A DNA stretch of 64,000 nt, taken from the NCBI GenBank assembly GCA_031835245.2, contig JAVKOQ020000038.1, positions 62,001 to 126,000 on the forward strand, given 5' to 3'. This document shows, piece after piece, positions 292 through 60,503 of the stretch; within the stretch, counting starts at the first letter, position 1; each line of letters begins with the position of its first letter. Source of the DNA: Balamuthia mandrillaris. Its lineage: Eukaryota. The position numbers and the translations under genes are program-made. Below the pieces are notes generated by a model. That model saw only the letters and a list, made by a program, of their open reading frames with translations, had not been told where the DNA came from and did no database searches.

Positions 292-1062
292 TTACCATTG
301 TGAAGGCTCTCCAGCCATGAAGGTGAACAAGTGTTTGGGCAGGAGCTGCTCCACCTTCAGCGCTTCTTCCGGCACTCTCTTGTGCAGCACTTTGGAGCAA
401 TAAAAAAAAAAAACGGTTGCAACCAAAATGGTGAGCAAAATAATTGCTAAAAAAAATTAAAAAAAAACAATAATTTTCGGCTTTTGAGAAAAACGCACAA
501 CTATCAAAAAACACGATAAAAAATCGACGACAACAACAAAATTTTTACCCTTCAGGACGGCATGACAGGCAGCCTCGGCGTCGTCGTTCCACTTGACGTT
601 GTTCTGGCCGCCGGCTCTCTCCACGGCCAGCCTCAGGAACTCCTCCCGGCTCTTCACCTTGAGGGGCACCCTGGCCGGCTGCCAGCCCTCGTAGTAGGCC
701 CCGCGCAGGACGAGGGGCAGCTGGGCCGCCAGGTGCACGGCCTCCGGCACGGGGAGGCGGTCGCGGGTGGCCGCCATCACCCCGCGGAACATGCTGTAGG
801 CCAGGTGCAGGTCCATGCCCTCGCGCCGCTGCTGCAGCTCCTGGGGGGTGAGCCGGCCGAGGTGGCTGTCGCGCGAGCCCACCAGCTCGCTCTCGAACTC
901 GTTGTAGATGTCCTTGAGCCAGCTGTCCACCTTTTGGAGGTTGGCGTGGAAGAGGTGTTCGGTGGTGTTGGCGAAGGTGGCGCCGTGCTGTTTGTACTTG
1001 TCCATCTTTTTGTCGAGCTGGGTCTCCGCTGCTGGTTGTTGTTGCGGTTGAGCCTGTTGCAT
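292..1062 (-). CDS. DUF2267-family protein (bacterial-type uncharacterised protein), 2 exons
   Basis: Exon 1 (1062-549) reads MQQAQ...VDSWLKDI...AYSMFRGVMAATRDRLPVPEAVHLAAQLPLVLRGAYYEGWQPARVP...SREEFL...AEAACHAVLK, which matches the DUF2267 pattern (LRDRL..EA.HLAAQLP..LRG.YYEGW). After a GT..AAG intron, exon 2 reads VLHKRVPEEALKVEQLLPKHLFTFMAGEPSQW, ending at TAA 294-292. Confidence 0.8.
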
Positions 1063-1775
1063 TGTCGGTGCGGTCGAGGTGGATGAGAAACGGAGGGGAT
1101 GCTTTGCAAGAGGAAGAAAGAAAGAGGCGGTGGTGTGTGTTCTTGTGAGAAGGGCGTTTGGGTGTTGTCTTCTAACAATGTGATGCATCCACTTTCAAAA
1201 AAAAAGAAGATGAAAGAAGGCTATCTTCTTCTGTAATAGAGGCTCTCTCTGTTGGTTGGTTGGTTGGTTGGTGAGCCCGAATGACGGTGGTGGGGAAAGA
1301 ATCTATGCATGCTCAGGGAAGAAGAAAGGTGGGTGACCCATACAACCAAGAGGAGGGGCAAGGAGCCAACAACCGCTCGTTTGCAGCAACCTTGCCGTTG
1401 GTTTGAAGTCATTTAGCCCTGGGATTTCCTCCCTTTTTATCTTGCCATCTTGCCCAAAGGGGATGCAAGCAAAGCAGCCAAAGGCGATGCCCCAGGGGGG
1501 GGGGAGGGGCATAAGGGGGGAGGACGTGTACACCTTTTCAACAAGGACTCAAAGGGAAAGGTTCTGTCGCGGAGCCGATGCAACGAGCTCCCCCGTTCGA
1601 TGCCCCGGAGACTGGAGGACTTCTTTTATCTTTTGGACTTTGGACAACTCAAGAATTGGAGGAGAAGAAGAACAAGAAGAACAAGAAGAGAATAGAAGGA
1701 CAGGAGAGAAGAGAAGGAACGGAGAGAAGAGAACCTTGACTCGAGAAACTGTTTCTTTTTCCTTTCTCTGTCCAA

Positions 1776-18140: not shown

Positions 18141-21100
18141 TCAACAGGGCAGTCCTTTCGTAGAATGGTTTGGGCTTTGTACAGGGCTTAAACTCTTGTT
18201 GTCAGAAGTGTTGGTGCTGGAGGACGTGTTTTCTTTGAGGGATAATTGGGCAAAAGAGGAAGTGGGTGGTGCTGTTGATGAAGAAGAAGAGGAAGAGGAA
18301 GAGGGGATTGAAGAGCTCGTTCGGTCACCAGTTCTTCCTTCTTTCTCTGGTGGTGGTTGTTGCTGCTGTACCCTTGCATTCATTCCACCTGAACGAGAGA
18401 ACAAGAAGATACAGAGAAGAGGAGATAAGGGAGAGAACAACATAAAAGGAACGAAAAAGCGACGAAGAGTAACGAACCTGCGTGAAATTGATATTCAGAA
18501 GGAAAACCGGTGGTTGTAGTTTGGGCAGTGGGAGGGGGCATGGGGAAATAAAGTGGTGGAGGCATTAGTTGATGATACATCGACTGTTGTTGCTGCTGCT
18601 GGTGCTGCTCTGTCATCAGCTGATAGCCTCCTCCTTCCACATTACCGCTGCTGGTGCTGCTGATAGAACTGCTGTACATCGCATCAAACTCTACAAAACC
18701 TTGTTGTTGCTGTTGTTGAAGATGATGATAATCGTCAGAAGATAATAATGAGGATGTTGATGAAACTGCTTGTCCAGTTGATGAAGAGTCTGAAAAAGAG
18801 GTTGTAGGAGGAGCCATGTACATTGTAGTTGTTGAATATGGAGCATAAGTTGGATGCGTGTATCCCATTTGATAGCCGCCACCGCTGCTATCACCGCTAT
18901 AAGATATTCCTCCACTGCTGCTAGAAGGAGTACCACCAACGCCTGTTGTTGGTGATATGGTGGAGGTTGGAGTGGACGAAGTAGCGGAGGAGGTTGGGTA
19001 TGAGTAGTTTGGAACTACTTCCCCTGTTTGAGCCGCGAAGAATTTCCTGTACAGGTAACCAAAAATGAGAGAGATGTTAGAGAAGAAGAAAACAAAAAGA
19101 GGATATAAACTAGAGTACCGGTTGTAAGGATGAAATTTATGAAGAGGGGTGGACGGAGCAGTAGGAGGAGGAGGCATGTTTGTTGGTTGAGAAGGAGGAA
19201 TGTACAACGGCACGTTCCCACCCATTTGTTGCTATTCAAAAGGCGAAATCAGCACCAACGGGTATCACTCAAAGAGTATAGTAAACGAAAAAAATGAAAC
19301 AAAACGATGAAAAGGAAGGAGAAAGATGAATACATACAGGAATGATCATGGGAGGAGGAGCAGGTGCAAATGATGTGGCTGGAGGATACGTGAAATAATG
19401 AGTGCCGCCTTGAAGGTAGGCGTTTGCGGCTGGTACTGGCGGTGCAACCATCATGCCCATAGTATAGGGCGATGCACCTGGCATTTGATGAAGTCTTCTT
19501 CTGCCCTTCATGTCTGCGGATTCGCAATATTGTACTCTAATTCTTTTGCCCAACCATTCCGTTCCATTCTGTATCGATATCGTGCAAAGTGAAGTAAATG
19601 AGTTAGCTGCACGAAGCATTTTTTTTTTTACTTAGTTTACCTCTTGTTCAATGGCAGAAGCGGATGATGAAGCATCTTTGAAACGAACGAAAGCAAATGC
19701 ACTTCGAGGTATGCCTGTTAATTTGAGATGAGAACGAAGCTTATGAAGAGAGGAGAGGAAGGCCATACCTGTCTCAGGTTCTTCCCCTTCATCCTTTTTT
19801 ACCAAGGAAATGCTTTCGATGGGTCCATAACCCTCAAAACGTTCCTGCAATAACTCTTTCGTGATTTGAGTAGGATTGAGCCCACCAACAAAAATATTGT
19901 GCTTGTCCACTCCGGTCATCAGCTCCGATTCGTTTGTGCTTGTTGCCCATTCTATCACCCATCTTCTGTGCGTTTGCTTCATCGACTTTAAAGAGCGAGA
20001 GAGAGAGAGAGAGAGAGAAAGGGGGGGGAGCTACAGAAGCAAGAGGAGATGGAGAGATGTTGAAGGTTAACAAATAGTACCAGAAATGCCTCCATGGCAT
20101 CCTCCCGAAATTCAAACTTAACAAAACCACAGCCTTTGCTCTTTTGCGTGTGATGGTTTTTGATTATAGTAACACTCTCGATAGGGCCAAACGGCTCGAC
20201 AATTTCTCTCAGTTTCTGCATTTGACAACAGGAACAGAAGTAGAATTTGGAGTGAAAGGTAGTTAGCATAACAGAATGTTAGCATTTGAGCGAAAAAAGG
20301 GTACCTGAGCAGTTAGACTCCTGCTCATCTTGGCAATAAAGAGTGTGCGATTAACTTTGGCTTTTTCTACTCGCAACCGCCGTCCTTGCAACACTTGGTC
20401 ATTGGAACTCAACAAAGCTGCATTTGCATCTTCCACTCGCTGTGTTTCATCACTTTAGCCAACACAGAAACAAAGGTAGAAGATTACACTTAAAAAAAAA
20501 AGACACGACACGGAGAAAGAGACTGAGAGAGAGAGAGAGAGAGAGAGAGGAGACAAGACTAACACAAATCAAAAGAAGACTAAACCTTAAACTGAACAAA
20601 GGCATAGGGACGAGAGGCTGGATCTCTCATGATTTTGATCTTAAGCACTTCACCATACTGCGAAAAATGTTGGTGGAGGACCTCTTCCGTCGCCTGCGAG
20701 GACAAGCTCGCCACGAACAGACAGGCTTGCGGAGGTCCCTTTGGTTCTCCTCTCGAAGAAAACGTCGCGGTCGTTACGGTTGGAGCCCCTTTCTTTTCAC
20801 CCGCTTCATGCTCTTCTTCCTCTTCCTCTTTCCTCGTTTCTTCTTGCTCCTTTTCGCTCACCACGTCTCTATGAGTGCTTTGGGGTTCACTTTTGTCTGG
20901 CTGCCCCCTTTCAACATTGTTGCTGGAAGCGGCAGGTTTAGAAAGGAGTGCAGGAGCAGAAGGTGATGTTGCCCCTTTCTCTGGCGGTCCGCCTTGTTTT
21001 AATAAATGTTATGTGAGATAAAGTCGAAAAGAAAAAAATTAATAATTTTGTGAGCGAAAGGATAGATGGAAGGAAACTTCGGATGGGAAAATCATGCATT

Positions 21101-21194
21101 TTACGGAAGGAAACAAACAAAAACAAGGGGTACCTGTAGTTGAAAGTGCTTCCTTTGGCTCGATGGGGCTCTCCTCCTCTTTCTTTGGTTGCAT
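18141..21194 (-). CDS. Triple-RRM RNA-binding protein with long low-complexity C-terminus, Rim4/Msa1-like
   Basis: RRM1 ACLFVASLS...KIMRDPASRPYAFVQF...LQGRRLRVEKAKVNRTLFIAK. RRM2 KGCGFVKFEFREDA...WVIEWA. RRM3 DKHNIFVGGLN...FAFVRF...WLGKRIRVQY. The tail is S/P/Q/Y/T-rich. Confidence 0.85.
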
Positions 21195-22321
21195 TCGTTT
21201 TTGTTTGATTGCTTTGAAACCCTTAAAAAAAAGGGGGGGAAACAGATAACAGAGCGCTCTCTCCGCGGGGTTCCTTTGTGGTTAACGGGTAACAGTGAAA
21301 TAGAAGCCGTTTAGTTTAGGTTTTCGTGAAAAGGTCATTTACATCTCTCAACCGCATCACCCCAAAAAGATAAGAGTGACCCATCTCCTGGAGAGAAAGT
21401 GATATATCTGTCTCTACTTTTTTTGGAGCACGTTACCACAACAAAACATCAGAACTCACCTGCAAAACAAAAATGGGACCCCCTTTGTTTTTCTCTTTCG
21501 ATGAAGAGATGAACGGGGAGGAGGGAGGAGTGGTCGAAGCAAACACACACCTCTGCCCACCGACTTTAAAAGAAAAAACGAAAAAGCAGACTCCCCCCCA
21601 CAAACTTTTTTGGTTGATAAACTACTTTCTTTGAAGACCCTTCTTTTTTGCTTCTTTTGTTTTCTCCTCTCTCTTTCTCTCTGTGTGCGGCAAGCAGGCT
21701 GCCAGACCCACCAAACGGTCGCCAGGATTCCTGTCGGTACGACTCGACGACGTCCAGCTGGCAGAAGAACACTGTCCAGCGCTGCCCCCGCCCTCCCCCA
21801 TCTCCCCAACCGGGCCGTTTCCCACCAAGACCCAACGGTAAACAAAAAGCTGCGAAGGCCTGTCCAGAAAAGGCAAAGCTAGGATGTCAAACGTGCTTGT
21901 TACCATGGGAACCCTAGCGATGGGACAAGATGTCTCACGGGTGTTTTTTTTTCCGTTTCAAAAAAAGATAAACAAAACAAACTGTGGAGCGATGGATCGG
22001 CGCTATCCTCGCCAATGAGAGGAACGGGAGGATGTGCGAGGAAACGAACGAGATTTCCCAGGATACAATGTGGAAATTTCGAAATCAGCTTTTTTTGTGA
22101 ATTTGGATTGGAAGATGATCGGCCGATCGATTGATAAATGCGTCCAATGAGGAGGTACGTCTCTCCGCGTCTGTCCCGCGTTCAATGGACAGGAGAGGGC
22201 TAAAATTTACGTTCAGCAATTCTCTTTATGGAAAATCTAACTCGTTGATAAGAGAGTAGGGATAAAGGTTGAGCCAGCGCTGGTGTGGGGGGGAAGCGCA
22301 AACAACCGAGAGTAAAGCAAG

Positions 22322-23339
22322 ATGCCTCTTCGACTAACCGCAACTTTTGGGCTCCTTTTGGTCGTGGCCCTTGTTGCGCCCACGGCAAGAGCTGCCCTTG
22401 GAGGCCTTGCTCATTTTGAGACGGTCAGCCCCAATTTCTTAGGCGTGGAGTGCATGCTCCCTGTGTATGATGCTGGTGGATGCTTCTTCCCCGAGTTCGG
22501 CAGCCCCGTCACCGTCACCAACTGCTCCGAGAACATCAACGACAGGACGTCTTTTCCCTCTCAAGTAAAAATTTTGAGCCTGAAGATGGACGCCGCTGCT
22601 CGTTTTAAGACTACGGACGAGGAGACCTACCAGCTGTGGTCCAGACAGGGTTGGCTGAGACAAACCTACTCCAGCGAGGAATTGGTGGACCGCCTGTTCG
22701 GCACCACCGGTCTGGAGGCCATCACCTTCACCAAGAACGCCGATCAAAATTCGGCAGAGTTCTTTGAACGTACGATAATATTTTTTTTGTCTCGCTGCTT
22801 GTGTCGCTTCTTGCTCTATCTGCCCTCCTTGTGTGAGCCTCCTTGTTTCCTGTCCCTGGTTCTTGTCCACTCGCTATTCTGTTTTTTAGGTTTATTACGC
22901 TTCTCTTCCACTCACCTTTGTTTTTTTTTTCAATGCCCTCTTCTCGCCCTTCTCCCTGGGGTATCCTTTGCCGTCACGCCCACCCCACACAGTGGCAGCG
23001 AGGTTCAGCAGGGTGGGTTCGTGGGCTGGCGGCAACCAGAGCTGCCACGACTTGCCCCTGGTGCGGGCCGTCTTCGACATGCCCCTCAGCCGACTGACCA
23101 TCACCGAAAAGCTCGTGCTGAAGGCGGAGGGCGTCATCAGCAAGTTCAGCTTCGTGGCGGACCCGGCGGTGGGCGAGCCGGTGGAGGAGATCAAGATGGA
23201 CGTCAACTGCCTCTCCTTCCAGTACCTGTTCAGCAACCGAGCGGACACCCTGCCCACGCCCACCCTCATGAAGAACACCTTTTTCTTCACCGCCAAGTAC
23301 TTGGATGAGCCTGCTTGCGTGGATGCAGGGGGGGAGTAG
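22322..23339 (+). CDS. Secreted protein of 264 aa (2 exons: 22322-22769, 22993-23339) with similarity to Hcp/TssD (T6SS tube) proteins
   Basis: Signal peptide MPLRLTATFGLLLVVALVAPTARA. A GT..AG intron at 22770-22992 joins the frames as SAEFFE-L-AARFS. GC-rich codon usage. Hcp-like motifs ITFTKNADQNSAEFF and VISKFSF...PVEEIKMDVNCLSFQY. The gene itself is well supported; the Hcp assignment is by eye. Confidence 0.6.
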
Positions 23340-23425
23340 AAAGGAAGACACCTTCGTTGCTTTGTTGTTTTGGGGTTGTCGTTGTTGGAAGAAGAAAAAA
23401 AACAGTGAACAAACAATCACCGGTT

Positions 23426-24509
23426 TTAGACTTTGTGGGTCTTCTTCTTGCTTCGCTGCTTCTTCTTCTTGTTTTTCTTTGTCATCGTGGGAGTTGTTGT
23501 GTCTATGTCCTTTTCTTCTGTTGTTGCAACTGACTTTTGCGCTGCTGCTTCTACATCCATCGAAGCTTCTGCTTGTTGTTGCGCTTCTCCAACCCTCGAA
23601 TAAAGGTGAGTAGACGTACTCTCTGTTTCTTCGTCTTCGCCTCGTTCTTCCATCGAAGTGTTTGGTTTCTTCAACAGCGAGTCCATGAAGGAGAGGTAAA
23701 GCTTGGAAGGAGGTGGAATAACATGAGAAGGAGCGTCAAAGAGGTCGGAGAAGAGTGGAGCTTGCATCGCGTCAAGTTGTTGAAGTTGGTCCTCGTCTTC
23801 TTTCTTCTTTTTCTTTCCCTTAGCCTGAAGTTGCTCCGTTTTACCAAACATCTTCTCAAAGTGCGTCAGTTGTTGATTAGCATCTTGCAAAAGTTGTTTC
23901 TCTGTTGTCACTTCGTCTTCTCCTTCTTCATTGTTGTGTTCGGCAGATTGTTTTTGCTGCTCCAGTTTGAAGAGCTCTTTCCGAGCGTTGAGATACAGAA
24001 TAGCTCGTTCGGATCTGGTAGAGGAGTTGAGGAAAGCTAAGCTCTCCACGGGATTTTTCTTCGACACGCGCCAGAACCAAATGGGCTTTGGAGAGGTTGG
24101 CGAGAACAACAGCAAGTACTTTTTGGTCGAAACGACGAAACGTGGTTCGCTCTTGTTAGATGAATAAAATTGTTGTTGCTGTTGGAAGGGATCAACGGCC
24201 AAAGAGATGACGTTGAGTCGATAAGACCACCAAACAGAAGAGGTCAACAAGTTCCACACAAACAACTGGTCTTTTGTGTAGCAGACGAGGAAGGAGGTGT
24301 CAGGAACGAAAGCTAAGCCCTTAATCTCCTCATTGGGAACCGGGTGGCAGAGCGTATGATGTAAAGCGTTATTGATTGCATCCCACAGCGTTATCACCTG
24401 TTAATTTATTTTTTCCAACGAAAGAATCAACGAAAAAACGAAACTTGATAAGGATCACCAGGGAGGGAGAAAAATGAAAGAGGGAGAGAGGGGGGGGGGG
24501 AGAGAGAGA

Positions 24510-24546
<37 letters not shown>

Positions 24547-25064
24547 GCGAGGGTTAAATGCAATGTAGCATACCTGGCCATAAGCAATAGCAAGGAGAGA
24601 GCCATCCGAGGAAAAAGCGGCAGCAGTGGCAGGACTGTCCTTGTAAAAACCAACTGACCTGCACATCCACGCTGTCTTATCTGCAGCTGTGGTGGGAGCT
24701 GGATGCAAGTTTAAAATAAGAAAGAGAACTAATCCAAAAATGCAATGAAAAGTAAAGGAGACGTACTTCCTGGTTTGCGGACGTGAGTCCATATTTTGAA
24801 CTTCTTATCACGCGAGCAACTAACAACGAGGTTCAAGGTAGGGTGATAAACCAGTCCCGTTACTTCCCTGACGTGAGGATTATCCATTCGAGTATTCATG
24901 ACAAAACTATTTGAGAGAAGAGAGGAAGAGGGAGTTAATTTCTTAATCGCGAAACAAAGAGAAAAGCAAAGTTACTTTTGGGACCGTAGATCCCAGTGCC
25001 AAAACTTGAGGGAGGTTTCATCGGGTTCCGGTCCTCTATCCACCTAAAATACAATAACGTGTGA

Positions 25065-25100
<36 letters not shown>

Positions 25101-26929
25101 GTACCGTAACAAGTTGCATGCCATCTGGACTGAAACATATATTCTCCACCACTGCCTCCGAGATCCTAACATTGTTAAAGACGTTTACAGCCGGCGGAGC
25201 ACACACCTCCAACTCAAATGCATGTCGGTCCGCCAGAGCATCATAAAACTGAAGGGTTCCGCGTCTTCCATTTAACACAATCAAGTTCTGTCTGGGCTCC
25301 ACGACGAGACCCGTAGGAATGGTCCTGGATTTGCCAAAGACTTGCACTGGCTTTAAGCCTTGGATAAGGCGCTCTTCGGTCATGGAGAGGGCGTTGATAA
25401 TGCGGATAGAATTGTCAGCGCAGGACAGGGCATAGTATTTGAAGTCGGGACTGGGGGTTATGCCATTGATGGTGGATCCAAGGCGGGGCAAAAAGTCCTT
25501 GTGGCCGGTTTTTAACTGCCATATCACGAACACCGCCTTTTTTTTCAACATTTGTTGATTAGAGGTGTAACACATAGAAGGACAAGCAAAAGAAGCAAAA
25601 AAGTGGGGACGTGCCTCTTCACCACCAGAGTACATATACGCTCCGTCAGGACTGAACGCGAGCGACCGCGGGGAATGAGCATGCCAATGGAAGTTGGTGA
25701 TAACAGGTCGCTCCGCTTTTGGCTTGCTGTTACTGCCATTACTTGCAAGGCAATAGTTGAAAGAGATACAGCCGGTAGTGTCCCCAAAGACTACACAATA
25801 CTCCGTTGGGTGGAAATGCAGACAAGTAATTTCAAACTTGTGGGTCACCCTATTTTTTGAGCATTAGCAAGAATGAAAAGATAGAGTAATAGCGAGGCCA
25901 TAGACCAAAGGAACAGAAGGAGAGAATAGATGGGAGAAAGAGGGTGCGAACCTCCGTGGCTTGCCTGTGCGAGTCAGGCTGTGCAAGAAAAACTCGTTCT
26001 TGCCAAAACTTCTTGTGGCAAGGTAATCCCCGTTAGGGCTTACCCTTAGCTCGCCAAAAGGGGCCATAGATTTGGATATAACTCTTTGCTGCTTTCCCTT
26101 TAGTTGGAAGCAAAGCAAACGCCAAACCTTCACGGCCGGGGCATTCGTTTTCTTCTTAAAAGGCTTCGGCTTCTTTTTCGTTTTATTTGTTGACGTAAGT
26201 TCGCTGTCTTTGGTTTCTTCTTCTCCCTCTTTCTGTTCGTCATTATTGTTGTCGTTATCTCCCTCCACATCCATTGATTTACCATCTTCACCTTTCTCTT
26301 CTTCCTTTTTGTCTTGTTGACCTTCCTTTGTTGAGTCGTTCTCGGAACGTTTCCAGTTGCCGCTGTTATGTTCTTCTTTCGGTCCCAGGACAACGTAAGC
26401 GGTACCTTCGCGGACGGGATCCAACATGAAGCTTTCTATGGGATGTTGCAAATCCCAGGCTTGAAGAATCACTCCGTCGCTATAGTCCCACAGCAACAAT
26501 CTTCCATCCAGTGACGTCGAAAAGAGCTGGACAGAGAGAAGAGAAGCAAGCGAAAAATAGTGAGTGAGAAGAAGAGAAGAGAGAGCGATAAAGAGAGAGA
26601 GAACCTGCAAAGGATTGGCAGGATTGAGAGCGACGCTAGTGACTCTGGTGGTATGCCCAAGCAGCTGACGAACGGGTTCTCCCGTCTCCACGTTAAACAC
26701 TTTGATGCATAGGCCTTGACAACCAAACAAGTACCTTCATTGTAGGATAAAAAAAAGTTAATCGGAGATTGCGATTCTACTTTAATACACAGAGCGAGAG
26801 AGAGCGCGAGAGCGAATAAAAGTCAACAGAAACGTACTTGGTATCGGCGGACCAAACGACGGGGTGACCGCTCGTGAGAAAACCTCCGGCGATGAGGGAG
26901 TGGGACCATTGAGCGGAGGGTTGCGCCAT
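23426..26929 (-). CDS. WDR75: WD-repeat protein 75 / U3 snoRNP component UTP17 (Nan1)
   Basis: Family motifs FHWHAH...LAFSPDGAYMYSGGEE.VFVIWQLKTGHKDFLPRLGSTI, WMCRSVGFYK...AAAFSSDGSLLAIAYG and C-terminal LFDAPSHVIPPPSKLYLSFMDSLL. Confidence 0.9.
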
Positions 26930-27635
26930 TTTGTGTTCAATAAATAAATAAATAATAAAATAAATAAAGAGGCGGGGTGCTGTTTTGAAAAAAAAAAGAG
27001 GAAATATTCCTTGGAGAGGAAGAAGCGCTTTTTTGTTGAGAGTCCTGCGAAGAAGCAATCCCAACAATAAAGAAATAAAAGGTATTATTAGTGTTAGTCT
27101 TTTTTTCATGATCTCAATCTGAGAGGAAAGTTTACGTACGAAAAGCTTGAAAGCCGAAAACGACTCTTTTTTTTTTGTTTCTTTCACGCAAGGAAGGAAG
27201 GAGATGAAGAAGAAGGGCGGGAGGGCGTTGCGCTACACAAACTATTTTTTTTTTGGGTTCTTTCTTTCTTCCTTTCTTCTTTTCTTCGCGCGATTTATTG
27301 CGGACATGTCGACAACAAATCGTGCTCTTCTCCCTGCGATAGGAACCAGAGCGAGTTTCGTCCCTTCCAAGGCAGCGTGTTTGGCGCGATGATTGAGGGA
27401 GACAAATCCTTGCGTTCCTCCGGACACATGGGTTTCTTTTCCTCCTCAAATTTTCGCATTCTTTCCGCCTTTTTTCTTGCCCTTTGAATTTTTTTTTTCG
27501 TTTCTTTTCTTTTTTGCAGCAACAAAAAAACACTCCAGTCACACTTTGATTGGCGCCTTTCGATTTCGGATCCCTCGCTCGCTCACTTTTTTTTTTTCCT
27601 CCTCCCTTTCCCACACACAAAAAAAAAAAACAAAG

Positions 27636-28254: not shown

Positions 28255-30632
28255 TCACTCGCAGGAAGCAGTCGTGGAGGATGGCTCTGGGGACGACGAT
28301 TGGTAGCTATGAAAGACTTTATCGATGGACCCGACAAAGTTCACCTGGCGGTTGTTCCACAGCACGCAGCTCCCCAGTTTCCTGCACACGCTCATCTTCT
28401 CCACACACACCGGCCTCTCAAACACCAACCTATCGTGATAACGCAACACACACAAACGTTAGATATGAGAGGAGAGAACGAGAGAAAAGGAGGAGGAGAA
28501 CAGAAGCAGCACCGAGCAACAGCAACAACTCCAAGGGGGATGTGCGTGGGAGTCTCGTTCACCACACGTGCGGTGCGTTTATCCAGCAGGCGCTCGATCT
28601 CGGCGATGGTGCAGTGCGTGGAGGCGCTGTGGCAGTAGAAAGTGGAGCCATGGCCGATGGCTGCCTGTGACGCCAAGGGCAGGCTCACCAGCCTAACCGT
28701 AACCTCGTAGGCGGGCTGAAGGGGGTGATGCTCGGCATCGGAGAGCACCAGGCCTTTAAGGTGAAGCTTGTTGGGAGGGATCGGCAAGAAGACGACATCC
28801 TCTTTATCCTCGTCTTTCTGCTCCTTTGGTTCTTTTTCTTCTTCTTGCGTAGGAGACGGAGCTGATGAAGCGGAGGAAGCAGAAGAAGGAGCGCAAAGGT
28901 TCAGGCGAACACCGATGATATCTCCTGGAATGGCTCTGGCCACGGGTGCACCGTTTCTCTCGATGGAGAGCACCCGAAGAGGTCGCTCCAAGGCAGCCGC
29001 TTCCTCATCGTGGTGATCGAACAACCGACGAAGGCGGATGGCCCGATTCGGTTGTTTGCGTTTCCTGTCCCACTTGGTGCTGCTTGCCAAGGCTCTCCTT
29101 CGCGCAAAGAGAACAAGGCCCGACAAAGGAAGCCACACTCGCGTATCACGTGTGATGCAGCCTTGGAGCACCTTCCCGATGAGCACCGTGTATCGTCTGC
29201 CGTCTCTGTCGTCCTCTGCTTTGGAGAGGATCCAATCAAAGACGCACATCCTCAGTGGCGCAAAGAGCTGCCTTGTTGGTTCTGCCATGGCATGCAGTGC
29301 TCCCAACAAAGTCGGTCCGCTGTACCAAGGAGGAGCAACAGCTTGCGCATCCATGACCTCCTCCTCCGCGCTCATCTTTGGTGCTGAGGGAGGCGGAGGC
29401 GGCGCCTTTCTTTCATCCTCTCCGCCCTGCTGCCTGTTTTGTCGATGCACGCTCTCATCGAATAGTTTCAAGCGGGCACGAGTTACGTTCTCTCCTGTCC
29501 ACCCGGAGACTGGCACGAATACTAGGCTTGACGCTGAGTAGCCTACGCGCTTGGCAACGCTGAGGACCTCGTGCTTGACATCGAAGTAGCGGTTGGGGTT
29601 CCAGCGCGCTGCTTCCATTTTGGTTATGGCCACCACCAGCTGTTTGATGCCATGCACCCATGCCAGCACCACGTGCAATCTGAGCCACCCAAAATAGTGA
29701 GCATGAATGGGATGCTGAGAGAGAGAGAGTGAGGGAGAGAGAGAGAGAGAGCAGAGCAGGAGACAAAAAGAACAGACCTGGTCTGACCATTCCTAGAAAT
29801 GCCTGCTTCAAACTCAGCCAAATGGCTGGACACCACCAAGAGGCCATAGTCAGCAAGACAAAAGGCGCGGTGGGCATTCTTTATGAAGCACGTCTTGCCG
29901 GGGACGTCGATAAGGTCGTAGTATCTGTTTTCTGTATCTAACTTGAGGCAACGGGCCTGGGTTGCTATTGTATATCCATGTTATGGAGAAGAAGAAGAAC
30001 AAGAAGAAGGACAAGAAGAACAAGAAGAAGAATGAAAAAGAACTGATAGGAGGAAGCAAAGTGGCGTACATACTTCCTCGTTTTCTCTCCACCGGTGTGC
30101 GATCAACCAGATGGGCGAGCCGGCTCGGAATACCATCCCACTGGTTCGCCTCCCCACCGACAAACAACAGCTGCCCCAGCAATGTGGATTTACCGCAAGC
30201 AGTGTGCCCAAGAAAGATCCAGCTGGTGGTTCTCTTGGCGTGCCGACCCGCCGCAGCAGTCAGGAAGGTCTTTCTCCACAAGGCCTCCTCCTCTTGCGGT
30301 CCTTCTTCTCTCTCTTTTGCTTTGTCAGGAGGTGCACCGAGGGGTTGGCACGGAGAGGAGATGCCACGATGGAAGCACAGCTGCTTCCACAAGTAGGGAT
30401 CCCTTCCAAGCTGAGCAAAGCCGTGGCAAACCTGAAGCAGGCAACCGAGGCTTTTGGCATCCAGCTCCCAGCATATCGTCATCCAAATCTTTTGTGTTCA
30501 ACAAAGAGGGAAGCACAAATGGCACGGAGTGTTGGCAAGCTGCCTGCCAAGGGACAAAAGGGCGGGGAGTGCGAGGCAACAACAACAAACCTCAACAGGG
30601 ATAGAGGGGAGTTGATCGTGGTGGGTCTTCAT
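28255..30632 (-). CDS. F-box protein fused to a divergent eEF1A/HBS1-like GTPase (domains I-III)
   Basis: Exon 1 (30632-30591) plus exon 2 (from 30488) give LPSIPVEIWMTICWELDAKSLGCLLQVCHGFAQLGRDPYLWKQLC (F-box). Then GHTACGKST, ERKRG, IDVPGKTCFIKN, EFEAGISRNGQTR, GIKQLVVAITKME, VPVSGWTGENV, PWYSGPTLL, AIPGDIIG and RPVCVEK...LGSCVL. Confidence 0.85.
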
Positions 30633-35388: not shown

Positions 35389-38044
35389 CTAGTCCGATTC
35401 TAATGCAGAAGGGTCTTCGATGGTCATCTTGTTATCGCTCCTCTTGGACCTGCTGGAGGAGGCCTTGGTGGCCGTTACCATGCTCTGCCACAGTCGGGAA
35501 TACACCCTGCGCCAATCCAAAGTCATAAAGGTCAAGAACAGAAAGAGTCCTTTGGAAGAAGAGGAGCAATTGGTAAGTTTCTCAGAGCCCAGCGGAAGGA
35601 AAGGGAGGTGGAGCAGCAGCAGAACGGAGGAAAGGAGGAAAGCAATACCTAATCCAGAGTAACCGATGGAACGAATGAGCACAAGCCCATAGTTTGTGAT
35701 GTCTTGACTTAGAGAGCAGCCTTCAATCGGCTTCTCGTAGATCAAGCAGACGTAGTAGTCATTGTAGCCCTCTTTGATGGTGTCCTCGTTGGCCTCCACT
35801 TGGATGGAATAGGCAAAGATGAAGCAATACACCGCCAAGAACACGAACACGAAGAGCGCGATACGATAGTACATGAACACCAGCTTCTTGCAAGAGCCTT
35901 CCTTGATGCCTAGGTAGAGGATGCGTGCGATGCTGCACACGAAGAAGACCAGGCCTAAGACAAGCAACAAGCAGACTGGAGCCAACCAGAAGATACCCAA
36001 GTAAACCGCGTCATCTTCGTTCGAAACAAAACAGCTGAGACAAGGTCAATGCATCGTTGATCTTCTTGCCGAGAGTAAGAACGGAGAGAGGCAGAGAAAG
36101 AAACAGACGTACAAAGTGGCAGCCGAGGCGAATGCGATGCGATCCGCAACCATGCACACAAAAGCGCAGATAAGAGGAAGGCCCCATCCGATCGTGTGGA
36201 ACGTAAACTGTTGCCATCGGGTAAACTTCTTGCTGTTCGGTAACCTCTCTTTGAAAAACAGCTGTTTTAAACAGATCCGCTTCGTTAGGCATCGGTCTCT
36301 CTCGCTCACACAAAAAAACTAAAACAAACAAACCAGGAGAGAGAGAGAGAGAGAGAGGGAAAACCTGCAAGAACATGTTGAGGGCGATGAGAGCCCACCA
36401 GCAAGTTCCAGCCAAGAACCCAAACATCAACAGCCCGCCTTGCAATGTGCACACTGGGCTCTTGAACGCCAGGTCCCACTCCACCTGGTAGCTCTGCCCG
36501 GTGAGGCTGGCGTCGGGGTCATAGGTCACCTTCATGTCCGGAACGGCCACATCTCCGTTCAAGCTGCACCAAACGTTCTCGTGGCCGACGAAGGAGGGGA
36601 AGATGATGGCCCAGGCGGCCATGTGGGCGGAGAGAGCCACCATGGTGATGAGGTTGGAGGGCCATCGCCGCAGCTTTGGGTCGATCGCATACGTTACCAC
36701 CAGGAACAAACTTGTTACCTTTATAGTTTGATGAACATAGTTATGGTGAGCGAGAGAACGGTGAGGAGAAACGAGCCTTAAGGCCAAGTCTTTCAAAGAC
36801 AAAGAGATAAAGAAGAGGAAAGACACGGCAACGAAAAGAAGAAGAACGACAAAAGGAACAAAGAGAGAAGTGAAGAGCGTTACCCAGGACAGCCATCCCA
36901 ACACCGACTGCAACACCTTGACCGCATGGTACCTGAGGAAGGAAGAAGGCGAAGCAAAAAAAAATAAAATAAATAAATATAAGTGTTCGTCGGCACTATA
37001 GGAAATATTTGACAATAATCCAATATGGAGCCAACGCAAGTCGAACAAACACAACAAAAAACGTACTGCTCGTCGTCCAGGCTGGGCAAAGGGCATTCGA
37101 AGCCGCAACGAACGGAATTCTCCGAAGCGGGGACCAACGGGCTCACGCAAGCGGAGGCGTTCACCGTGCGTTGAGCGCCTCCACATTGCGCCACCACGGA
37201 CTGTACATCCGCTTCTGCACCGGTCGCAACGCGGTACGTCGTGTTTTGGTAGAACGAGGCGTTGGTGGCTGGATCTATCTCGCCGCAGTCCATTGGAAGC
37301 TGGGCATCTCCTCCTGGGAAGAAGAGGCCGTAACCCAAGGGAGCTCCGAAGCGTTCCCACGTCGACGCACAGGCCTCCGCTTCAGAGTGAAAGAGACATG
37401 TGAGAGAAGGAACACAGGAGAAGAACAAAGAGGAGAACAACTGGAGAAGAAGAAGAAAAGGAAGGAAGGAGAAAAATAAGAAAAGCAAGTAGAAGAAACA
37501 GAAGAAGAAGAAAGGTACTAAAGTCTTGGCATATGGCGCGACAAGGTTGTACAGGATGGACGATGGTTTCTGTTCATCAAACATATCGCACGAAACAACC
37601 GAAAAGAGTTAAAACAAAAACAACAACAAACAATAAAACAGACGATCGGACCATTTGTAACGGGATCCACTACACAGGGACGAATGTACGTCCTGCAAGC
37701 CATATCAACAGAACTGATCTGACATTCCTGGGGGATGCTGGTTGCCCCGTTGCCTCCGGTGAACGAGATGACACCTCCTCTTATCTCTTCCCACGTTCTA
37801 TTCTCTGGCACAAATATCTGCGTCCCAGCTGGTGGTTTTGTTGTTACAATGGAATGCGCTCGCCAGTAAAACCACAAGGAAGGAAGCACGCGGAACAGAG
37901 CAACAAACCTTCAAGCCCAACGTAGGACTGACAGACGGAAGGCTCTCCATCCCATGTATGACAATAACCAGCAGCGAGTGCTGCTGTTGAGGATGGCACT
38001 GACTCCACAAGAAGCAAGAACAACAACACATAACAGATGAACAT
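35389..38044 (-). CDS. Frizzled/Smoothened-like GPCR, copy 1
   Basis: Signal peptide, a Cys-rich extracellular region (CHTW...CQSY...CQISSVDMACRTYIRPC...CASTWERF...CVSPLV...CGFECPLP), then 7TM with RRWPSNLI, CTLQG...FGFLAGTCWW and FHTIGWGLP, as in Dictyostelium Fsl receptors. Confidence 0.85.
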
Positions 38045-38633
38045 CGTTGCTATTGTGTTTGTGCTGTATCGTAACAGAATAATGTAGGGATGATCGTTAC
38101 TGCTGCGTTACGGGTTTTTCAAACAACAAAGCGAAACATAATGGGGTAACAGCAGCACATTCCTAGTCAAGTAGCAGTAGTCAACTGGGGATAGCTGAGT
38201 ATGACGGTTGCTTAGTTAAAACCGTTATTGGGTCATTTCGTTTCATTTTCTCCTTATGGACAACCCCCCGGAGGCCTGTCCACTCCGTTTAGACCAAAAA
38301 ACGCTATCCCGTCAGGTTGCGGGTCACGATGACGAAGCCAATGCCTACGCCACTATTTGCAGAACTCTTTCCCTCGTGCCTACCTCTTCTCTCGTTATCA
38401 ACAGATCTTAAAGAGAAGCTTTTGCGTTTGGTATGTTTAAATGAACCTGCAATTATTTATTCTCTGGTGTACTTCCTTCGCAGAGGAAGAGAGAGAGACA
38501 GAGAGAGAGCGAGAAAGAGGAGAGAGAGCAAGCATGAAGAGAGAAAAAAACAAAATACCAAAACAAAAAGGGTGCAAATGAAAAATATACATGTAAGCAA
38601 AACCAAGGTGAGCCAGCAAAACTGTTTTTGAGT

Positions 38634-41218
38634 CTAGTCCGATTCTAATGTTGAGGGATCCTCGATGGTCATCTTGTCGGAGCTCTTCTTGTTTCTTCTG
38701 GATCTGCTGGAAGAGGTCCTTGTGGTGGTCATGATGCTCTGCCACAGGTGCACATACACCTTTCGCCACTCCAGGGAGGCAAAGGTCAAGAACAGAAACA
38801 GGCCTGTGATTTTATAAAACGAAGGGTGAATATGAGGAAGAGCAAGAGCAAGAGGAAGAGCAAGAGGAAGAGCAAGAGGAGGAGGCTGAAAGAAGTCATT
38901 CGGTTTACCCAATCCAGAGTACCCCAAGGCTCGAATGAGCACAAGGTCATAGTTGGTCACATCCTTGCTGAGCGAGCACCCTTCCTCCGGCTTCTCGTAG
39001 ATCAAGCACACATAATACTCGTCATAACCGCTCTGAATGGTGTCCTTGTTGGCCTCCACTTGGATGGAATAGGCAAAGATGAAGCAATACACCGTCAAGA
39101 ACACGAACACGAACAACACAATGCGGTAGTAGGTGAACACCAGCTTCTTGCACGACCCCTCCTTGATGCCCAGGAAGAGGATGCGTGCAATGCTGCACAC
39201 GAAGAAGATCAGGCCCAAGACAAGCAACAAGCTGACGGGAGCGAACCAGAAGACCCCCAAATAGGCTGCGTCGTCGTCGTTGGACACGAAACAGCTAGCA
39301 ACGAACAATGCTAATCATGTGAGCAAACTGAATGGAAGAAAGAAACAGAGAGCAGAGAAGCGGAGAGGAGAAGGGGAAGACGCACAACGTGGAACCAGAG
39401 GAAAAGGCAATGCGATCAGCAACCATACACACAAAAGCACAGAGAAGCGGGAGGCCCCATCCCACGGTGTGAAACACAAACTGTTGCCATCGTCTGAACT
39501 TTTTGCTCTTTGGCAGCTTCTCCTTGAAATACAGCTATTCTTCCCGACCCACAAAAGTTCGTCACTGAGCTCCGCTGAGGGAGAGAGAGGGGGAGAGAGA
39601 GAGAGAGAGAGGAGAGGAGAGAGAGGGAAAACAAACCTGCAAGAACATGTTGAGGGCGATGAGAGCCCACCAGCAAGTTCCAGCCAAGAACCCAAACATC
39701 AACAATCCGCCTTGCAATGTGCACACCGGGCTCTTGAACACCAGGTCCCACTCCACCTCAAAGTTCTGACCTCCGAGGCTGGCGTTCGGGTCGTAGCTCA
39801 CCTTGAGGTCAGGCGCGGCCACATCTCCGTTCAAGCTGCACCAAACGTTCTCGTGGCCGACGAAGGAGGGGAAGACGATGGCCCAGGCGGCCATGTGGGC
39901 GGAGAGAGCCACCATGGTGATGAGGTTGGAGGGCCATCGCCGCAGCTTTGGGTCGATGGAGTAGGTGATCACCAAGAACAAGCTTGCCACCCAAGACAAC
40001 CATCCCAACACGGTTTGCAACACCTTCACTGCATCATATCTGAGAGGAGGTTAACAACAAGAAGAACAAAGCGACAGAGAAACGCAAAGACATAGAAAAG
40101 AAAACGTTACTGCTCATCGTCAAGACTGGGCAAAGGACACGCGAAGCCACAACGAGCTGAATCTTCCGAAACTTGAACCAAAGGTTCAACACAAGAAGAA
40201 GAGTTGGACGTGCGTTGAGGTCCTCCGCATTGGGTGGTGATGACGGAATTGTTGGTGGACACGCTGAAAGTGGAGTTCAGGAAGAAGGATGCGTTGGTGG
40301 CGGGATCCATCTCCCCACAATCGAGGGGGAGTTGGGCATCTCCTCCTGGGAAGAACAGGCCGTAGCCCAGAGGAGCTGCAAACCTTTCCCATGTTGAGGC
40401 GCAAACCTCAGCTGAGATATAGCAGAGCAAAACAACAAGAGGTCAATATTGGATGTAGGCATCGCTTAAGAAGACAATGAGTTTGAAGATGGAAAAAGAA
40501 GGACAGAGAGGGTACCAAAGTGAAGGCACATGTCAAGACAAGGCTGTACCGGATAAACCATGGTTTCTGTTCAACAACCAGAGGCGACAAGAGAGAACAA
40601 TCAATAGGAAAATATCAAAAATGAACGAAAGAATGCCACATGCAGCATACCATTTGTGGCCGGGTCAACAATGCACGGCCGGACGTAGGTCCTGCAAGCC
40701 ATGTCCAAAGAACTGACCTGACATGCTTGCGGAATGCTGGCAATTCCGTTACCGCTGGTGAAGGTCAACAGCAGCGATCGGATGTCCTCCCAGGCCATTC
40801 CCTCTGGAACGAATATTTGTGTACCCGCTTTTGGCGTTGGTTAACGAGAGCACAACCAAGAGAACAAAGTCAGGAGCTAAGAAAGCAGACGAAGAAAAAG
40901 AAAAAGGAGGGAGGAGCAAACAAGAAGAAGCAGGAGAAGTAGCAGGAGAAGAAGAAGAAGAACAAGACAGTAGAAGACAGAGGAAAAAGATGAACAACAC
41001 GAAGAAGCACAAAGAAAAGAGGAAAAAGAAGAAAAAGCCGCAGAAACAAAAACACTGACAATACCTTCTAACCCAACATAGGCCTGGCAAAGCGAAGGCT
41101 CTCCGTCCCACACAATGCATTCCCCAGCGGCCGCCTCCGCCCTGACCTTCGGGACGGCTGCCGTTGCCCACAACCCCAACAACAACCAAACCAACACCAA
41201 CACGGAAACAGGTTGCAT
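38634..41218 (-). CDS. Frizzled/Smoothened-like GPCR, copy 2
   Basis: Same exon structure as copy 1 and near-identical TM exons (IDPKLRRWPSNLITMVALSAHMAAWAI; C-terminus KMTIEDPSTLESD). Confidence 0.85.
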
Positions 41219-41315
41219 GGCTGCTGTGGTATTAAGAACAGCTGTTTCCGAGCTGTTGTCTCCTCCTGCTGGAATGATGATGGCCAAAATAAAAGACAAG
41301 AACGGAAAGAACTGC

Positions 41316-41356
<41 letters not shown>

Positions 41357-41802
41357 AAAACTGAGAATAGGAGGATTGCCTTCATTTTCCAAAACCAATA
41401 AAGCAATTGTCTCCTGGTGATGCTCGTACATGGCACGTAACCCTTGATCGCTCTTTTCCCTTGTTTGGTTTATGAGGCGCAGCCCTGCTAATTAATGCTC
41501 AAAGCACCAAACAGCGATAATTCAACGAAGTGCGTTGCTGTCTGTTAGCTTTCAAAGGGGGGAGAATAGCTCAGCGTTACGTGTGGCCTCGCTATTTGTC
41601 TGCTCCTCCGGGTTGGCACTCAGGCCGGGTCCAGGTCCCGTGAAACACCCCCCAACGAGTAACGCATTGCTCCGCCGCGTATAACTTGTCGGGTGCTATC
41701 TTCCGTCGTGTAAACAAACCAATTATATTATTTTTACAAGTTGCAGTTATAAACAAAAACAAAACAAAACAAAACCTCAACACGTCAAGTTGACGGGACT
41801 TC

Positions 41803-42830
41803 CTAGCCCTCCTCTTCCAAGATAGACGGGTCTTCGATAGTCATCTTGTCGGAGCTCTTCTTGTTTCTTCTGGACATGCTGGCGGAGGTCCTTGCGGTGG
41901 TCATGACGCTCTGCCACAGGCGCGTCTACACCTTTCGCCACTCCAGGGAGGCGAACGTCAAGAACAGAAACAGGCCTGTGTTGGTATTGTTATTGGCAAT
42001 GGGTTATTAAGTTGGTTGAGGAAAATGAAGAAGAAGAGGGAGGACATCAGGGAAGTTTTGAAGTAAACGTTGCAATCAGAGAAGCACAGCCACAAATAAG
42101 GCGGCAAACATAGGAAGCGAATGAACAATAACACCAAGAAGAGGAGGGAGAACAAGATGAACATGAAGTACCTAATCCAGAGTAACCGATGGAACGAATG
42201 AGCACAAGATCATAGTTGGTCACATCCTTGCTGAGCGAGCACCCTTCCTCCGGCTTCCTGTAAATCAAGCAGACGTAGTAGTCATTGAGAAGGCCACATG
42301 AGAACAGCAAAAACACATGGGCAGCATACCATTAGTGGCAGGGTCAACGACGCAAGGACGAACGAATGTTCTGCAAGCCATGTCCAACGAGCTGATCTGA
42401 CAAGCCTCAGGAATACTCGCAAGTCCATTGCTGTTCGCAAAGGGTGCCACAGCGGCCAGAAGCGCTTCCCACGTTGGATGAATATAGGCGTTCCAACTGT
42501 TGTTTTGTTTGCCTTCAGCACAACAAACGAACAAGAAGACGAAGAAGAACAAGGAAGACGAAGAGCAGAAGATAAAGAAGGAAGAAAAAAAAATGGTAAT
42601 GGCAATAAAAGAGAGATGGCAACTAATGAAAGGCAAGAACAACAACATATGATGGGGAGAAAAAAAACACAAAAACCTTCCAGCCCAACAAAGTCCTGGC
42701 AAGGCGACGGCTGTCCATCCCACTCGATGCAGGTGCCAGCCGCCGCATCTTCTGCCACCGCCTTGGGCAGGGCGGCCGCTGCCCACCACAACAACAAAAT
42801 GAGAGGGACAGCTGAGCAAACCTGTCGCAT
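41803..42830 (-). pseudogene. Internally deleted, frameshifted Frizzled/Smoothened-like copy 3
   Basis: The signal peptide and first two Cys-rich exons are present. Exon 2 is frameshifted (GTPIFI and TWEALL are in different frames near 42475). The following intron is fused at about 42287 directly to the NDYYVCLIY segment before TM7, so the rest of the ectodomain and TM1-6 are missing. Confidence 0.8.
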
Positions 42831-43085
42831 GATGTAAGAAAGAAGTGGCTGGAGAGTTGACGGTTTGTTTTAACTTGAGCGTGTGTGTTATGGGTGTGTT
42901 GTAAACGTAAAATAATAATAAAAAGGATGGCGATGGTGAACAAAAGAGTAAAAGAATAACGTGGAATAACAAGATGAAGAAAAAAAAAGACGTTATGTCC
43001 GTCATCTAGGAAGCGTCGCGTGGAGTTGTTGTATAAAGGTTGTAGGTAATAAATTAGCGAGCTTATTAATGAAATTCTCCTCACT

Positions 43086-59720: not shown

Positions 59721-60503
59721 CTAAACTGCATTACTGAGCAAAGATGTTTCTTCGTTGATCGTCGTGCGCTGAGCCGTAAGCGGCACACTCGCAGCAGAGG
59801 AATCACCCCCTCTCCCTTTGAGCGTCGGCCTCCGTAGCGAGAAGATCACGCCCACTATAGCCAAGGCCAGCGGAATCAAAGCCAATATCACCTGAAAGAC
59901 CAACTGCCCGTGGAGCCTCGACAGCTGGCATAAGGCGCGGGCGAAACCGACAGTCACCGAGCTGCAGGCCTGTCCGGCCTGGAAGAAGTCGCGGCAAACT
60001 TTGTCGTCCCCGAGTTCGGCCAACACAGCAATTGCCCAAAAGGCAAACGCTGGGAGGAGCGCAAAGTACCAAAGGCAGCAAAACACCCAACACCAACACT
60101 GCCGACGAAGAGTAGGAGATGAAGAAGTTGAAGAAGGACGTAAGTGTGAGAAAAAGGTTTTGAAGGACATGTTCAACGGGAAGGAGTAAATGACGAGGGG
60201 GAAGAGGGCGAAAGACAGGATGTTGCCGACGAAGAGGATGACGACCAAGGCGTAGACGTGGTATTCTGATTCGCAGTCAGAGTCGGCTTTGTCCCGTTGG
60301 AAGATTATCACAATGAGAGAGAACAAGAGCACTTTCAAGAGACAAGCGATGAAAATCCGGAGAGAAGAAGTGAGCTAAACATAATACAGAAAACCTGTGC
60401 GTAAGTTTAATTTTGCTTATGTAAGGATCTTACCACCAGCCATGACGGAAAGCTGGACGCATGCTTTCACGAGCACTAACGAACCGCTAGAGAGACTTCC
60501 CAT
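59721..60503 (-). CDS. Unknown multi-pass membrane protein, tandem family copy A (2 exons)
   Basis: Exon 1 MGSLSSGSLVLVKACVQLSVMAG, then a phase-1 intron, then VLLFSLIVIIFQRDKADSDCESEYHVY...LSRLHGQLVFQV...EETSLL. Homologous to copies B and C. Confidence 0.75.

What the first reader, a model, noticed from the sequence alone, without database searches (positions are those of the whole stretch)
22322..23339. Spliced, signal-peptide-bearing eukaryotic protein that resembles the type VI secretion tube protein Hcp
Seen: a 2-exon, 264-aa gene between ordinary eukaryotic genes, with a signal peptide, six Cys and two N-glycosylation sequons (NCS, NQS). From memory of Hcp/TssD sequences, its mature region follows the Hcp motif order over the whole domain. 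ENINDRTSFPSQVKILSLKMDAA matches GES.D..H...I.VLSWSWG. GTTGLEAITFTKNADQNSAEFFELAA matches G......LSFTK.IDKSSP.L...C. HDLPLVRAVF matches KHYP.AKL. GVISKFSFVADPAVGEPVEEIKMDVNCLSFQY matches V.ISS.S..G....P.E.VSLNF..I...Y. Established: Hcp forms hexameric rings that stack into the T6SS/phage-tail-like tube, and canonical T6SS Hcp has no Sec signal. Inference: a phagotrophic eukaryote may have domesticated an Hcp/tail-tube fold and routed it to the secretory pathway. It could act as a secreted ring, pore or fibre, or as a decoy binding bacterial T6SS effectors. No other T6SS genes are visible in the window.
Basis: partly seen in the sequence, partly recalled or inferred. Interest (0 to 1): 0.88.

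Follow-up and report, generated by a model that had tools for sequence, protein, structure and literature searches.

The report
Secreted Hcp-like tube protein in amoebae
A likely spliced gene of the amoeba Balamuthia encodes a protein with a predicted export signal and a predicted fold like Hcp, the ring-forming tube subunit of bacterial type VI injection machines, so these amoebae likely took over a bacterial tube gene and would export it as a stand-alone ring.

Summary
The gene is as described: two exons (22322-22769, 22993-23339), 264 aa, an N-terminal hydrophobic signal, six Cys, two sequons. It is identical to NCBI hypothetical protein QOT17_005846 of Balamuthia mandrillaris and lies between an RRM gene and WDR75. 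Family HMMs (Pfam, NCBIfam, PHROGs) do not call it Hcp. Three more sensitive approaches do: ESM Atlas (30 of 30 feature hits carry T6SS_HCP), an AlphaFold2 model built without Hcp sequences (top-ranked PDB matches are Hcp, Z 7.9-8.4, a middling score from a weak model), and a profile comparison (P 4e-4; 0 of 267 shuffles reach it; 20 other families do worse). Four relatives were found, one in a Dracoamoeba transcriptome; all three full-length members have signal peptides and paired cysteines. Best reading: an Hcp-derived, disulfide-braced secretory protein of Centramoebida that likely forms rings without the rest of the machine. Ring formation, location and role are untested, no read crosses the splice junction, and expression in the runs examined is low. 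Ten literature searches showed no eukaryotic Hcp; the nearest precedent is the domesticated Dae amidases.

The parts
22244..22397 (+). 5' end of the gene covered by a 154-nt contig of a spliced transcript assembly (depth 5.5; neighbours 60-73)
   Evidence: run X1; RNA status is the tool's guess, but it shows the neighbours' introns spliced out and no depth at 21310-22212
22322..22769 (+). exon 1: signal peptide, Cys-bearing insert, first Hcp-like strands and the K-x-x-D-x-x-S motif
22322..22393 (+). predicted signal peptide, residues 1-24, A-R-A before the likely cleavage site
   Evidence: hydropathy; similar N-termini in P0003 and P0005; cleavage site inferred
22727..22753 (+). strand-helix junction F136-S144 matching the Hcp K-x-x-D-x-x-[ST] motif
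   Evidence: motif in 24 of 30 Hcp, 1 of 25 CREG-like and 0 of 21 gp19-like proteins, and in 3 of 3 family members that cover it
22770..22992 (+). 223-nt GT..AG intron, phase 1 (inferred)
   Evidence: NCBI model agrees; no junction read
22993..23339 (+). exon 2: end of the helix, glycan/Cys loop, three C-terminal Hcp-like strands, C-terminal Cys, stop
18300..21200 (-). upstream, divergent neighbour: multi-intron RRM protein gene (ends approximate)
   Evidence: Pfam RRM_1; eight spliced joints
23395..27090 (-). downstream, convergent neighbour: WDR75 gene (5' end approximate); joined to exon 2 on one contig (22921-24472) of an independent DNA run
   Evidence: Pfam WDR75 propellers

Best explanation
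This is a likely spliced nuclear gene of a centramoebid amoeba whose product is predicted to keep the fold of Hcp, the bacterial type VI secretion tube subunit, and would enter the secretory pathway, likely assembling into disulfide-braced rings that serve as a stand-alone structural scaffold at the cell surface or in a vacuole lumen rather than as an injection tube. Shown by calls or sequence: the open two-exon frame, eukaryotic neighbours, hydrophobic N-terminus, cysteine and sequon positions, a relative in another centramoebid family, and top-ranked Hcp matches in three kinds of comparison. Inferred: splicing; signal cleavage and N-glycosylation; three disulfides (C44-C68, C54-C222, C167-C258); acquisition from a bacterial hcp gene before Balamuthiidae and Acanthamoebidae separated; placement of the added loops on the outside and ends of an Hcp-type ring so that the inner barrel strands stay free; ring assembly; the scaffold role. 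My odds: Hcp/tail-tube fold 0.85, Hcp rather than a phage tube as source 0.7, secretory route 0.9, rings 0.55.
For: ESM Atlas: 30 of 30 feature hits carry PF05638, best 0.91 with 178 of 256 features; Atlas model vs an Hcp cluster TM 0.53/0.74 over 152 residues. AlphaFold2 on 5 family sequences gives the Hcp order of strands and helix. Foldseek PDB: best hit Hcp1 4w64, E 5.5e-4; 24 of 25 listed rows are Hcp, T6SS, pyocin or phage tail/neck entries, one of them named Hcp only from my recall. VIA second look: best 4hkh Z 8.4, rmsd 3.6, 124 of 137 residues; the top 13 rows are T6SS tube entries, 12 titled Hcp. Unbiased VIA over 48,161 chains: best 4hkh Z 7.9, rmsd 3.7, 126 aligned; first split-barrel enzyme-like hit at rank 21, Z 6.2. 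BFVD: named top hits are tail-tube proteins. hhalign, family vs 30 Hcp: score 31.3, P 4.2e-4, 95 columns; best of 20 other families P 0.08; CREG-like P 0.61; gp19-like P 0.23; 0 of 267 block shuffles reach 31.3 (max 29.1), reversed 12.7, and Hcp vs gp19-like tubes scores 30.1; Hcp stays best in 5 of 5 leave-one-out runs, also without P0001 (P 0.006). Signal-like N-termini in 3 of 3 full-length members; P0005 lacks the partners of C54 and C222 together, while C167 is kept in 4 of 4 and C258 in 5 of 5 members that cover them. Balamuthia and Dracoamoeba are different families of Centramoebida. GC3 0.76 lies within the host range 0.52-0.80 of four neighbouring exons.
Against: No hit to Hcp in Pfam, NCBIfam or PHROGs at E up to 10, none for the four relatives in Pfam, and an HMM of 30 Hcp scores all five members at 2 bits or less. 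The AlphaFold2 model is weak (pLDDT 45.5, pTM 0.48; residues 1-100 below 50) and its best unbiased Z of 7.9 is within the range the tool reports for models without a clear match; Hcp and phage tubes tie within 1 Z. The single-sequence model (pLDDT 37) matches nothing. The Atlas gave no usable hit for P0003 residues 29-300, and 4-10 in 100 shuffled proteins reach 0.9. hhalign probability is only 34% and single members give P 0.035-0.37. The residues corresponding to the Hcp G-E-S-x-D motif are poorly kept. No junction read; 0 reads on the gene in two raw RNA samples and about one intron-containing pair in a third, at 3-5% of each run read. No bacterial donor lineage was identified, so transfer is inferred from distribution alone.
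Confidence: 0.45

Rival explanations
1. Hcp-derived ring that works as a cargo carrier or decoy: its inner cavity would bind proteins (own secreted cargo, or bacterial proteins in the food vacuole), echoing the loading of effectors on Hcp.
For: Same fold evidence. Effectors are loaded onto Hcp in bacteria (PMC13584744, passages). Domesticated T6SS amidases serve antibacterial roles in eukaryotes (PMC8713801, passages).
Against: Identity to Hcp is 7-18%, so specific binding of bacterial effectors is unlikely to survive (inference). Balamuthia does not grow on bacterial lawns.
Confidence: 0.17
2. The fold came from a phage, prophage or extracellular contractile-injection tail-tube gene rather than from T6SS hcp; the protein would otherwise behave as in the best explanation.
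For: Phage tubes tie with Hcp within 1 Z (Sf11 7.2, YSD1 7.1 vs 7.9); NF5 tail tube ranks 2-5 in Foldseek; BFVD hits.
Against: Profile score vs gp19-like tubes 14.4 against 31.3 for Hcp; K-x-x-D-x-x-[ST] in 0 of 21 gp19-like vs 24 of 30 Hcp; 30 of 30 Atlas hits are T6SS_HCP. Only one tube family was profiled.
Confidence: 0.12
3. A secreted or lysosomal split-barrel protein (CREG/PNPOx-like, or an Hcp descendant that lost ring assembly) acting as a monomer or dimer that binds a small ligand or glycan.
For: PNPOx-family chains appear at Z 6.2-6.5; CREG is a secreted glycoprotein with that fold (recalled); large inserts could block ring closure (inference).
Against: Profile vs bacterial members of PF13883: P 0.61, 13 columns; no Pfam CREG or PNPOx hit; these chains rank 21 or lower. 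Eukaryotic CREG sequences were not in my profile.
Confidence: 0.15
4. A pore-forming or membrane-damaging secreted factor.
For: Ring-forming ancestry and secretion (inferred); the host eats other cells.
Against: No hydrophobic segment after the signal peptide; Hcp rings are soluble conduits, not membrane pores (established knowledge, recalled).
Confidence: 0.04
5. The resemblance is chance in a beta-rich orphan, or the gene is a silent or contaminant sequence.
For: No family HMM hit; weak model; no junction read and very low RNA depth; two amino-acid changes near the C-terminus in another sample.
Against: Three methods agree on Hcp; shuffles and decoys fail; exon 2 is joined to WDR75 in an independent DNA run, with the only indels of those two contigs outside the coding frame; a transcriptome-derived relative exists.
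Confidence: 0.07

Closest known systems
Hcp/TssD, T6SS tube protein (Pfam PF05638; PDB 4hkh, 1y12, 4w64, 3he1)
   Same: Predicted fold over about 120-130 residues (Z 7.4-8.4, rmsd 3.5-4.8); same order of strands and helix; K-x-x-D-x-x-[ST] and E-x-[IV] motifs.
   Different: 7-18% identity and below all family cut-offs; N-terminal signal; three inserts and a C-terminal extension; six Cys and two sequons; intron; eukaryotic neighbours and no T6SS genes found in the 64-kb window.
Phage, pyocin and eCIS tail-tube proteins (T4 gp19-like PF06841, Sf11, YSD1, NF5, pyocin R2)
   Same: Same fold family, Z 5.4-7.2.
   Different: Weaker profile match for the one family tested and no K-x-x-D-x-x-[ST] motif there.
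Dae proteins (domesticated T6SS amidase effectors; nvDae4, PMC8713801, passages read)
   Same: T6SS genes acquired by eukaryotes; nvDae4 encodes a secretion signal.
   Different: Daes are enzymes (cargo) that keep their activity; this would be a structural subunit of the machine itself.
CREG / PNPOx-like split barrels (PF13883; PDB 2hq7, 2i02)
   Same: Related barrel topology (Z 6.2-6.5); CREG is a secreted glycoprotein (recalled).
   Different: No profile or HMM support; lower structural rank.

Membership tests
Hcp/TssD (PF05638) | Sequence match above the curated cut-off of the family HMM | tested here: not met
   No PF05638 or NCBIfam hit at E up to 10; own HMM of 30 Hcp gives 0.7 bits.
Hcp/TssD (PF05638) | Hcp fold: two-sheet beta-barrel with one flanking helix | tested here: met
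   On predicted models only: TM 0.53/0.74; Z 8.4 and 7.9, top rank in both searches; weak model, so moderate strength.
Hcp/TssD (PF05638) | K-x-x-D-x-x-[ST] motif at the strand-helix junction | tested here: met
   3 of 3 family members that cover it; 24 of 30 Hcp. I chose the motif after seeing the alignment.
Hcp/TssD (PF05638) | N-terminal G-E-S-x-D-x-x-H motif | tested here: not met
   The aligned segment keeps position and spacing but not the G-E-S residues (global alignment).
Hcp/TssD (PF05638) | Cytoplasmic synthesis without a Sec signal peptide | tested here: not met
   Hydrophobic N-terminal signal in 3 of 3 full-length members; the Hcp state is established knowledge, recalled.
Hcp/TssD (PF05638) | Hexameric ring that stacks into a tube | not tested
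   The complex predictor was not available.
Type VI secretion system | Sheath, baseplate, VgrG and ATPase genes with the tube gene | tested here: inconclusive
   Home-made profiles of seven families from bacterial T6SS and tube loci give no hit better than E 0.017 in six frames of the window; no whole genome is held.
Phage/eCIS tail-tube proteins | Profile similarity to a tail-tube family | tested here: inconclusive
   gp19-like profile P 0.23; no PHROG tube hit; other tube families not profiled; structures tie within 1 Z.
CREG/PNPOx split barrel | Profile similarity to PF13883 or PNPOx families | tested here: not met
   No Pfam hit; hhalign P 0.61 against 25 bacterial PF13883 members.

The most novel reading that the evidence does not exclude
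An ancestor of Balamuthia and Dracoamoeba domesticated the tube subunit of a bacterial type VI secretion system, gave it a signal peptide, glycans and disulfides, and its descendants secrete self-assembling Hcp rings or tubes as an extracellular fibre or cargo container: the first eukaryotic use of a structural part of a contractile injection machine that my searches could find.
Probability: 0.4. Interest if true: 0.88.

Novelty: new variant of a known kind. Interest (0 to 1): 0.72.

Why it matters
The Hcp/tail-tube fold is known from bacteria, archaea and their viruses. The eukaryotic T6SS acquisitions I could document are enzymes (Dae amidases). A secreted, disulfide-braced Hcp family in amoebae would extend domestication to the machine's architecture, show that the ring can be rebuilt for the ER and the outside of the cell, and give a testable surface or secreted protein in a poorly understood pathogenic amoeba and a harmless relative.

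Tried and rejected
Pfam on each exon and on the whole protein, NCBIfam, PHROGs: no meaningful hit. phmmer against PDB sequences: nine WD40-repeat hits with no stretch passing on its own (4-7 bits each, summed over repeats), rejected as an artefact; the family profile gave only E 0.05 or worse. Single-sequence AlphaFold2 model unusable. ESM Atlas on the Dracoamoeba protein: no usable hit. Searches for more relatives: word-indexed protein searches returned only proteins already known; none in viral contigs, metagenome contigs, GTDB genomes, plasmids (best E 2) or 401 genomes of one bacterial phylum (one 20-residue match at E 0.08); the pattern-based scans find close relatives only, so this is not absence. 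No Acanthamoeba relative turned up, which is unexplained. No RNA holder on record was listed. The genomic context of P0002, P0004 and P0005 could not be retrieved, so their eukaryotic origin is inferred from signal peptide, cysteines and exon-like truncation. No tree was built: 7-18% identity is too low. A cyst-wall-only role was considered because expression is low, but no cysts have been observed in Dracoamoeba, whose transcriptome holds the relative (PMC5192571, section 26). Read-through of the intron was rejected. Earlier scan notes: nothing by sequence, words or place for this gene; one search returned mostly hybrid-cluster proteins, an unrelated 'Hcp'.

Full report
Observation. The joined frame 22322-22769 + 22993-23339 is open for 264 codons, with six Cys, sequons at 67 and 164 and a single hydrophobic stretch at the N-terminus. 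The same protein is in NCBI as hypothetical protein QOT17_005846 of Balamuthia mandrillaris, under three accessions. The neighbours are an RRM gene, WDR75 and an EF-1 exchange-domain gene. The intron resembles the 14 canonical neighbouring introns seen spliced in run X1 in its ends and pyrimidine content but is the longest. A profile made only from two intron-free relatives prefers the spliced form (47.0 bits, residues 128-251, across the junction at 150) over exon 2 alone (36.5) and read-through (-1.8). In DNA run X3 the gene lies on two overlapping contigs, the second continuing into WDR75, with indels only in the 5' leader, the intron and downstream of the stop. This argues against contamination.

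Expression. In X1, which behaves as a transcript assembly, the neighbours have depth 60-73 and this gene only a 154-nt piece of its 5' end at 5.5. X2 has nothing on the gene. Of three raw RNA runs, read at 3-5%, two have no reads on the gene and one has about one pair that includes intron sequence; neighbours were thinly covered too. No junction was seen. The gene is therefore weakly expressed in these samples and splicing remains inferred.

Family. phmmer over 1.84 billion representatives found 4 relatives at E up to 0.001: P0003 (441 aa) from the Dracoamoeba jomungandri transcriptome, P0005 (305 aa) and fragments P0002 and P0004 from unnamed environmental data. Balamuthia and Dracoamoeba belong to different families of Centramoebida. 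All three full-length proteins begin with a signal-like hydrophobic stretch. P0001 and P0003 have six Cys in the same order in the shared domain; P0005 has four and lacks the counterparts of C54 and C222 together; C167 and C258 are kept wherever covered. I infer pairs C44-C68, C54-C222 and C167-C258; the third Cys (C68) is matched by order, not by column, in my alignment. Further searches found no more members (see Tried and rejected).

Is it Hcp? Family HMMs say nothing. Three more sensitive tests point to Hcp. First, ESM Atlas: 30 of 30 feature hits carry PF05638 (best 0.91) and the Atlas model aligns to an Hcp cluster at TM 0.53/0.74 over 152 residues; but the same search with P0003 gave nothing usable and 4-10% of shuffles reach 0.9. 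Second, AlphaFold2 on the five family sequences, without templates or Hcp sequences, gave a weak model (pLDDT 45.5) with the Hcp order of elements. Foldseek ranks Hcp and tail tubes first, with low TM-scores of 0.20-0.27; VIA realignment gives Z 8.4, rmsd 3.6 over 124 of 137 residues of 4hkh; the unbiased search of 48,161 chains gives Z 7.9 for the same entry and places the first PNPOx-like barrel at rank 21 (rank 3, 4ksr, is a GspE entry whose matched part I recall as a fused Hcp1). Z below 8 is not decisive by the tool's own calibration; the consistency of rank is the evidence. Third, hhalign of the family against 30 Hcp proteins from 30 loci gives score 31.3, P 4.2e-4, 95 columns, against P 0.08 for the best of 20 other families, 0.23 for gp19-like tubes and 0.61 for CREG-like barrels. 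None of 267 block shuffles reaches it (max 29.1), and the known remote pair Hcp/gp19-like scores 30.1. It survives leave-one-out in 5 of 5 runs. These tests share the same few sequences and are not fully independent; I put the fold at about 0.85.

Anatomy and mechanism. Against Hcp the protein adds a signal peptide, a Cys-bearing insert after the first strand (about 37-70), an enlarged loop between the second and third strands (about 95-128, modelled as a hairpin and helix), a glycan- and Cys-bearing loop after the main helix (about 152-170) and a C-terminal extension. In Hcp the helix faces outward and the second loop lies at the ring end (recalled), so these additions would decorate the outside and ends and leave the barrel strands uninterrupted, which fits a retained ring (inference). 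Hcp forms ring-like hexamers that polymerise and carry effectors (PMC13584744, passages). No sheath, spike or baseplate gene was detected in the window, the rest of the genome was not available, and a protein made in the ER could not join a cytosolic contractile machine (inference). I therefore favour a stand-alone ring used as a scaffold at the surface or in a vacuole lumen (0.45), ahead of cargo carrier or decoy (0.17), non-ring split barrel (0.15), phage-tube origin (0.12), chance or artefact (0.07) and pore (0.04). A cyst-only role is disfavoured because Dracoamoeba has no observed cysts; an anti-T6SS decoy is disfavoured because Balamuthia does not grow on bacteria.

Membership and novelty. 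It fails the Hcp family cut-off, lacks the G-E-S motif and has a signal peptide, so I do not file it as an Hcp; it is an Hcp-fold derivative. Ten full-text searches (listings and abstract starts only) showed no report of a eukaryotic Hcp or tail-tube protein; two returned no papers at all. The Balamuthia annotation paper PMC10471605 has no occurrence of Hcp or type VI in its main text or in its one held supplement; other supplements and subscription journals were not visible. The nearest precedent is the Dae amidases, acquired several times from T6SS effectors, one with a secretion signal (PMC8713801, passages). Verdict: real gene, probable Hcp fold, new variant of a known kind, function open; interest 0.72.

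Noticed in passing
window 22322-23339 / P0001: The identical protein has three NCBI accessions on three contigs: paralogous loci, uncollapsed haplotypes or separate assemblies.
   Followed up: no
P0003 residues 310-441: The Dracoamoeba relative carries an extra C-terminal region with 12 Cys and a charged tail, with no Pfam hit; a possible binding or tethering domain fused to the Hcp-like domain.
   Followed up: partly
window 460-1194 (-): DUF2267 (PF10025) protein, E 8e-17; I recall this family as mostly prokaryotic, so it may be another transferred gene.
   Followed up: partly
window 28395-30497 (-): F-box-like motif followed by a divergent EF-Tu/eEF1A-like GTPase and C-terminal domain: an apparent F-box to translation-GTPase fusion.
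   Followed up: partly
window 35389-42900 (-): At least two tandem Frizzled/Smoothened-family receptor genes, with further similar N-terminal exons nearby.
   Followed up: partly
window 59721-62910 (-): Three tandem, similar-looking multi-pass membrane ORFs; two were scanned and have no convincing Pfam family.
   Followed up: partly
window 56992-59079 (+): Response-regulator receiver domain behind what looks like a degenerate histidine-kinase region (by eye).
   Followed up: no
window 23339-23395: The WDR75 transcript ends within about 40-60 nt of this gene's stop codon on the opposite strand, so the 3' ends of the convergent transcripts probably overlap.
   Followed up: no
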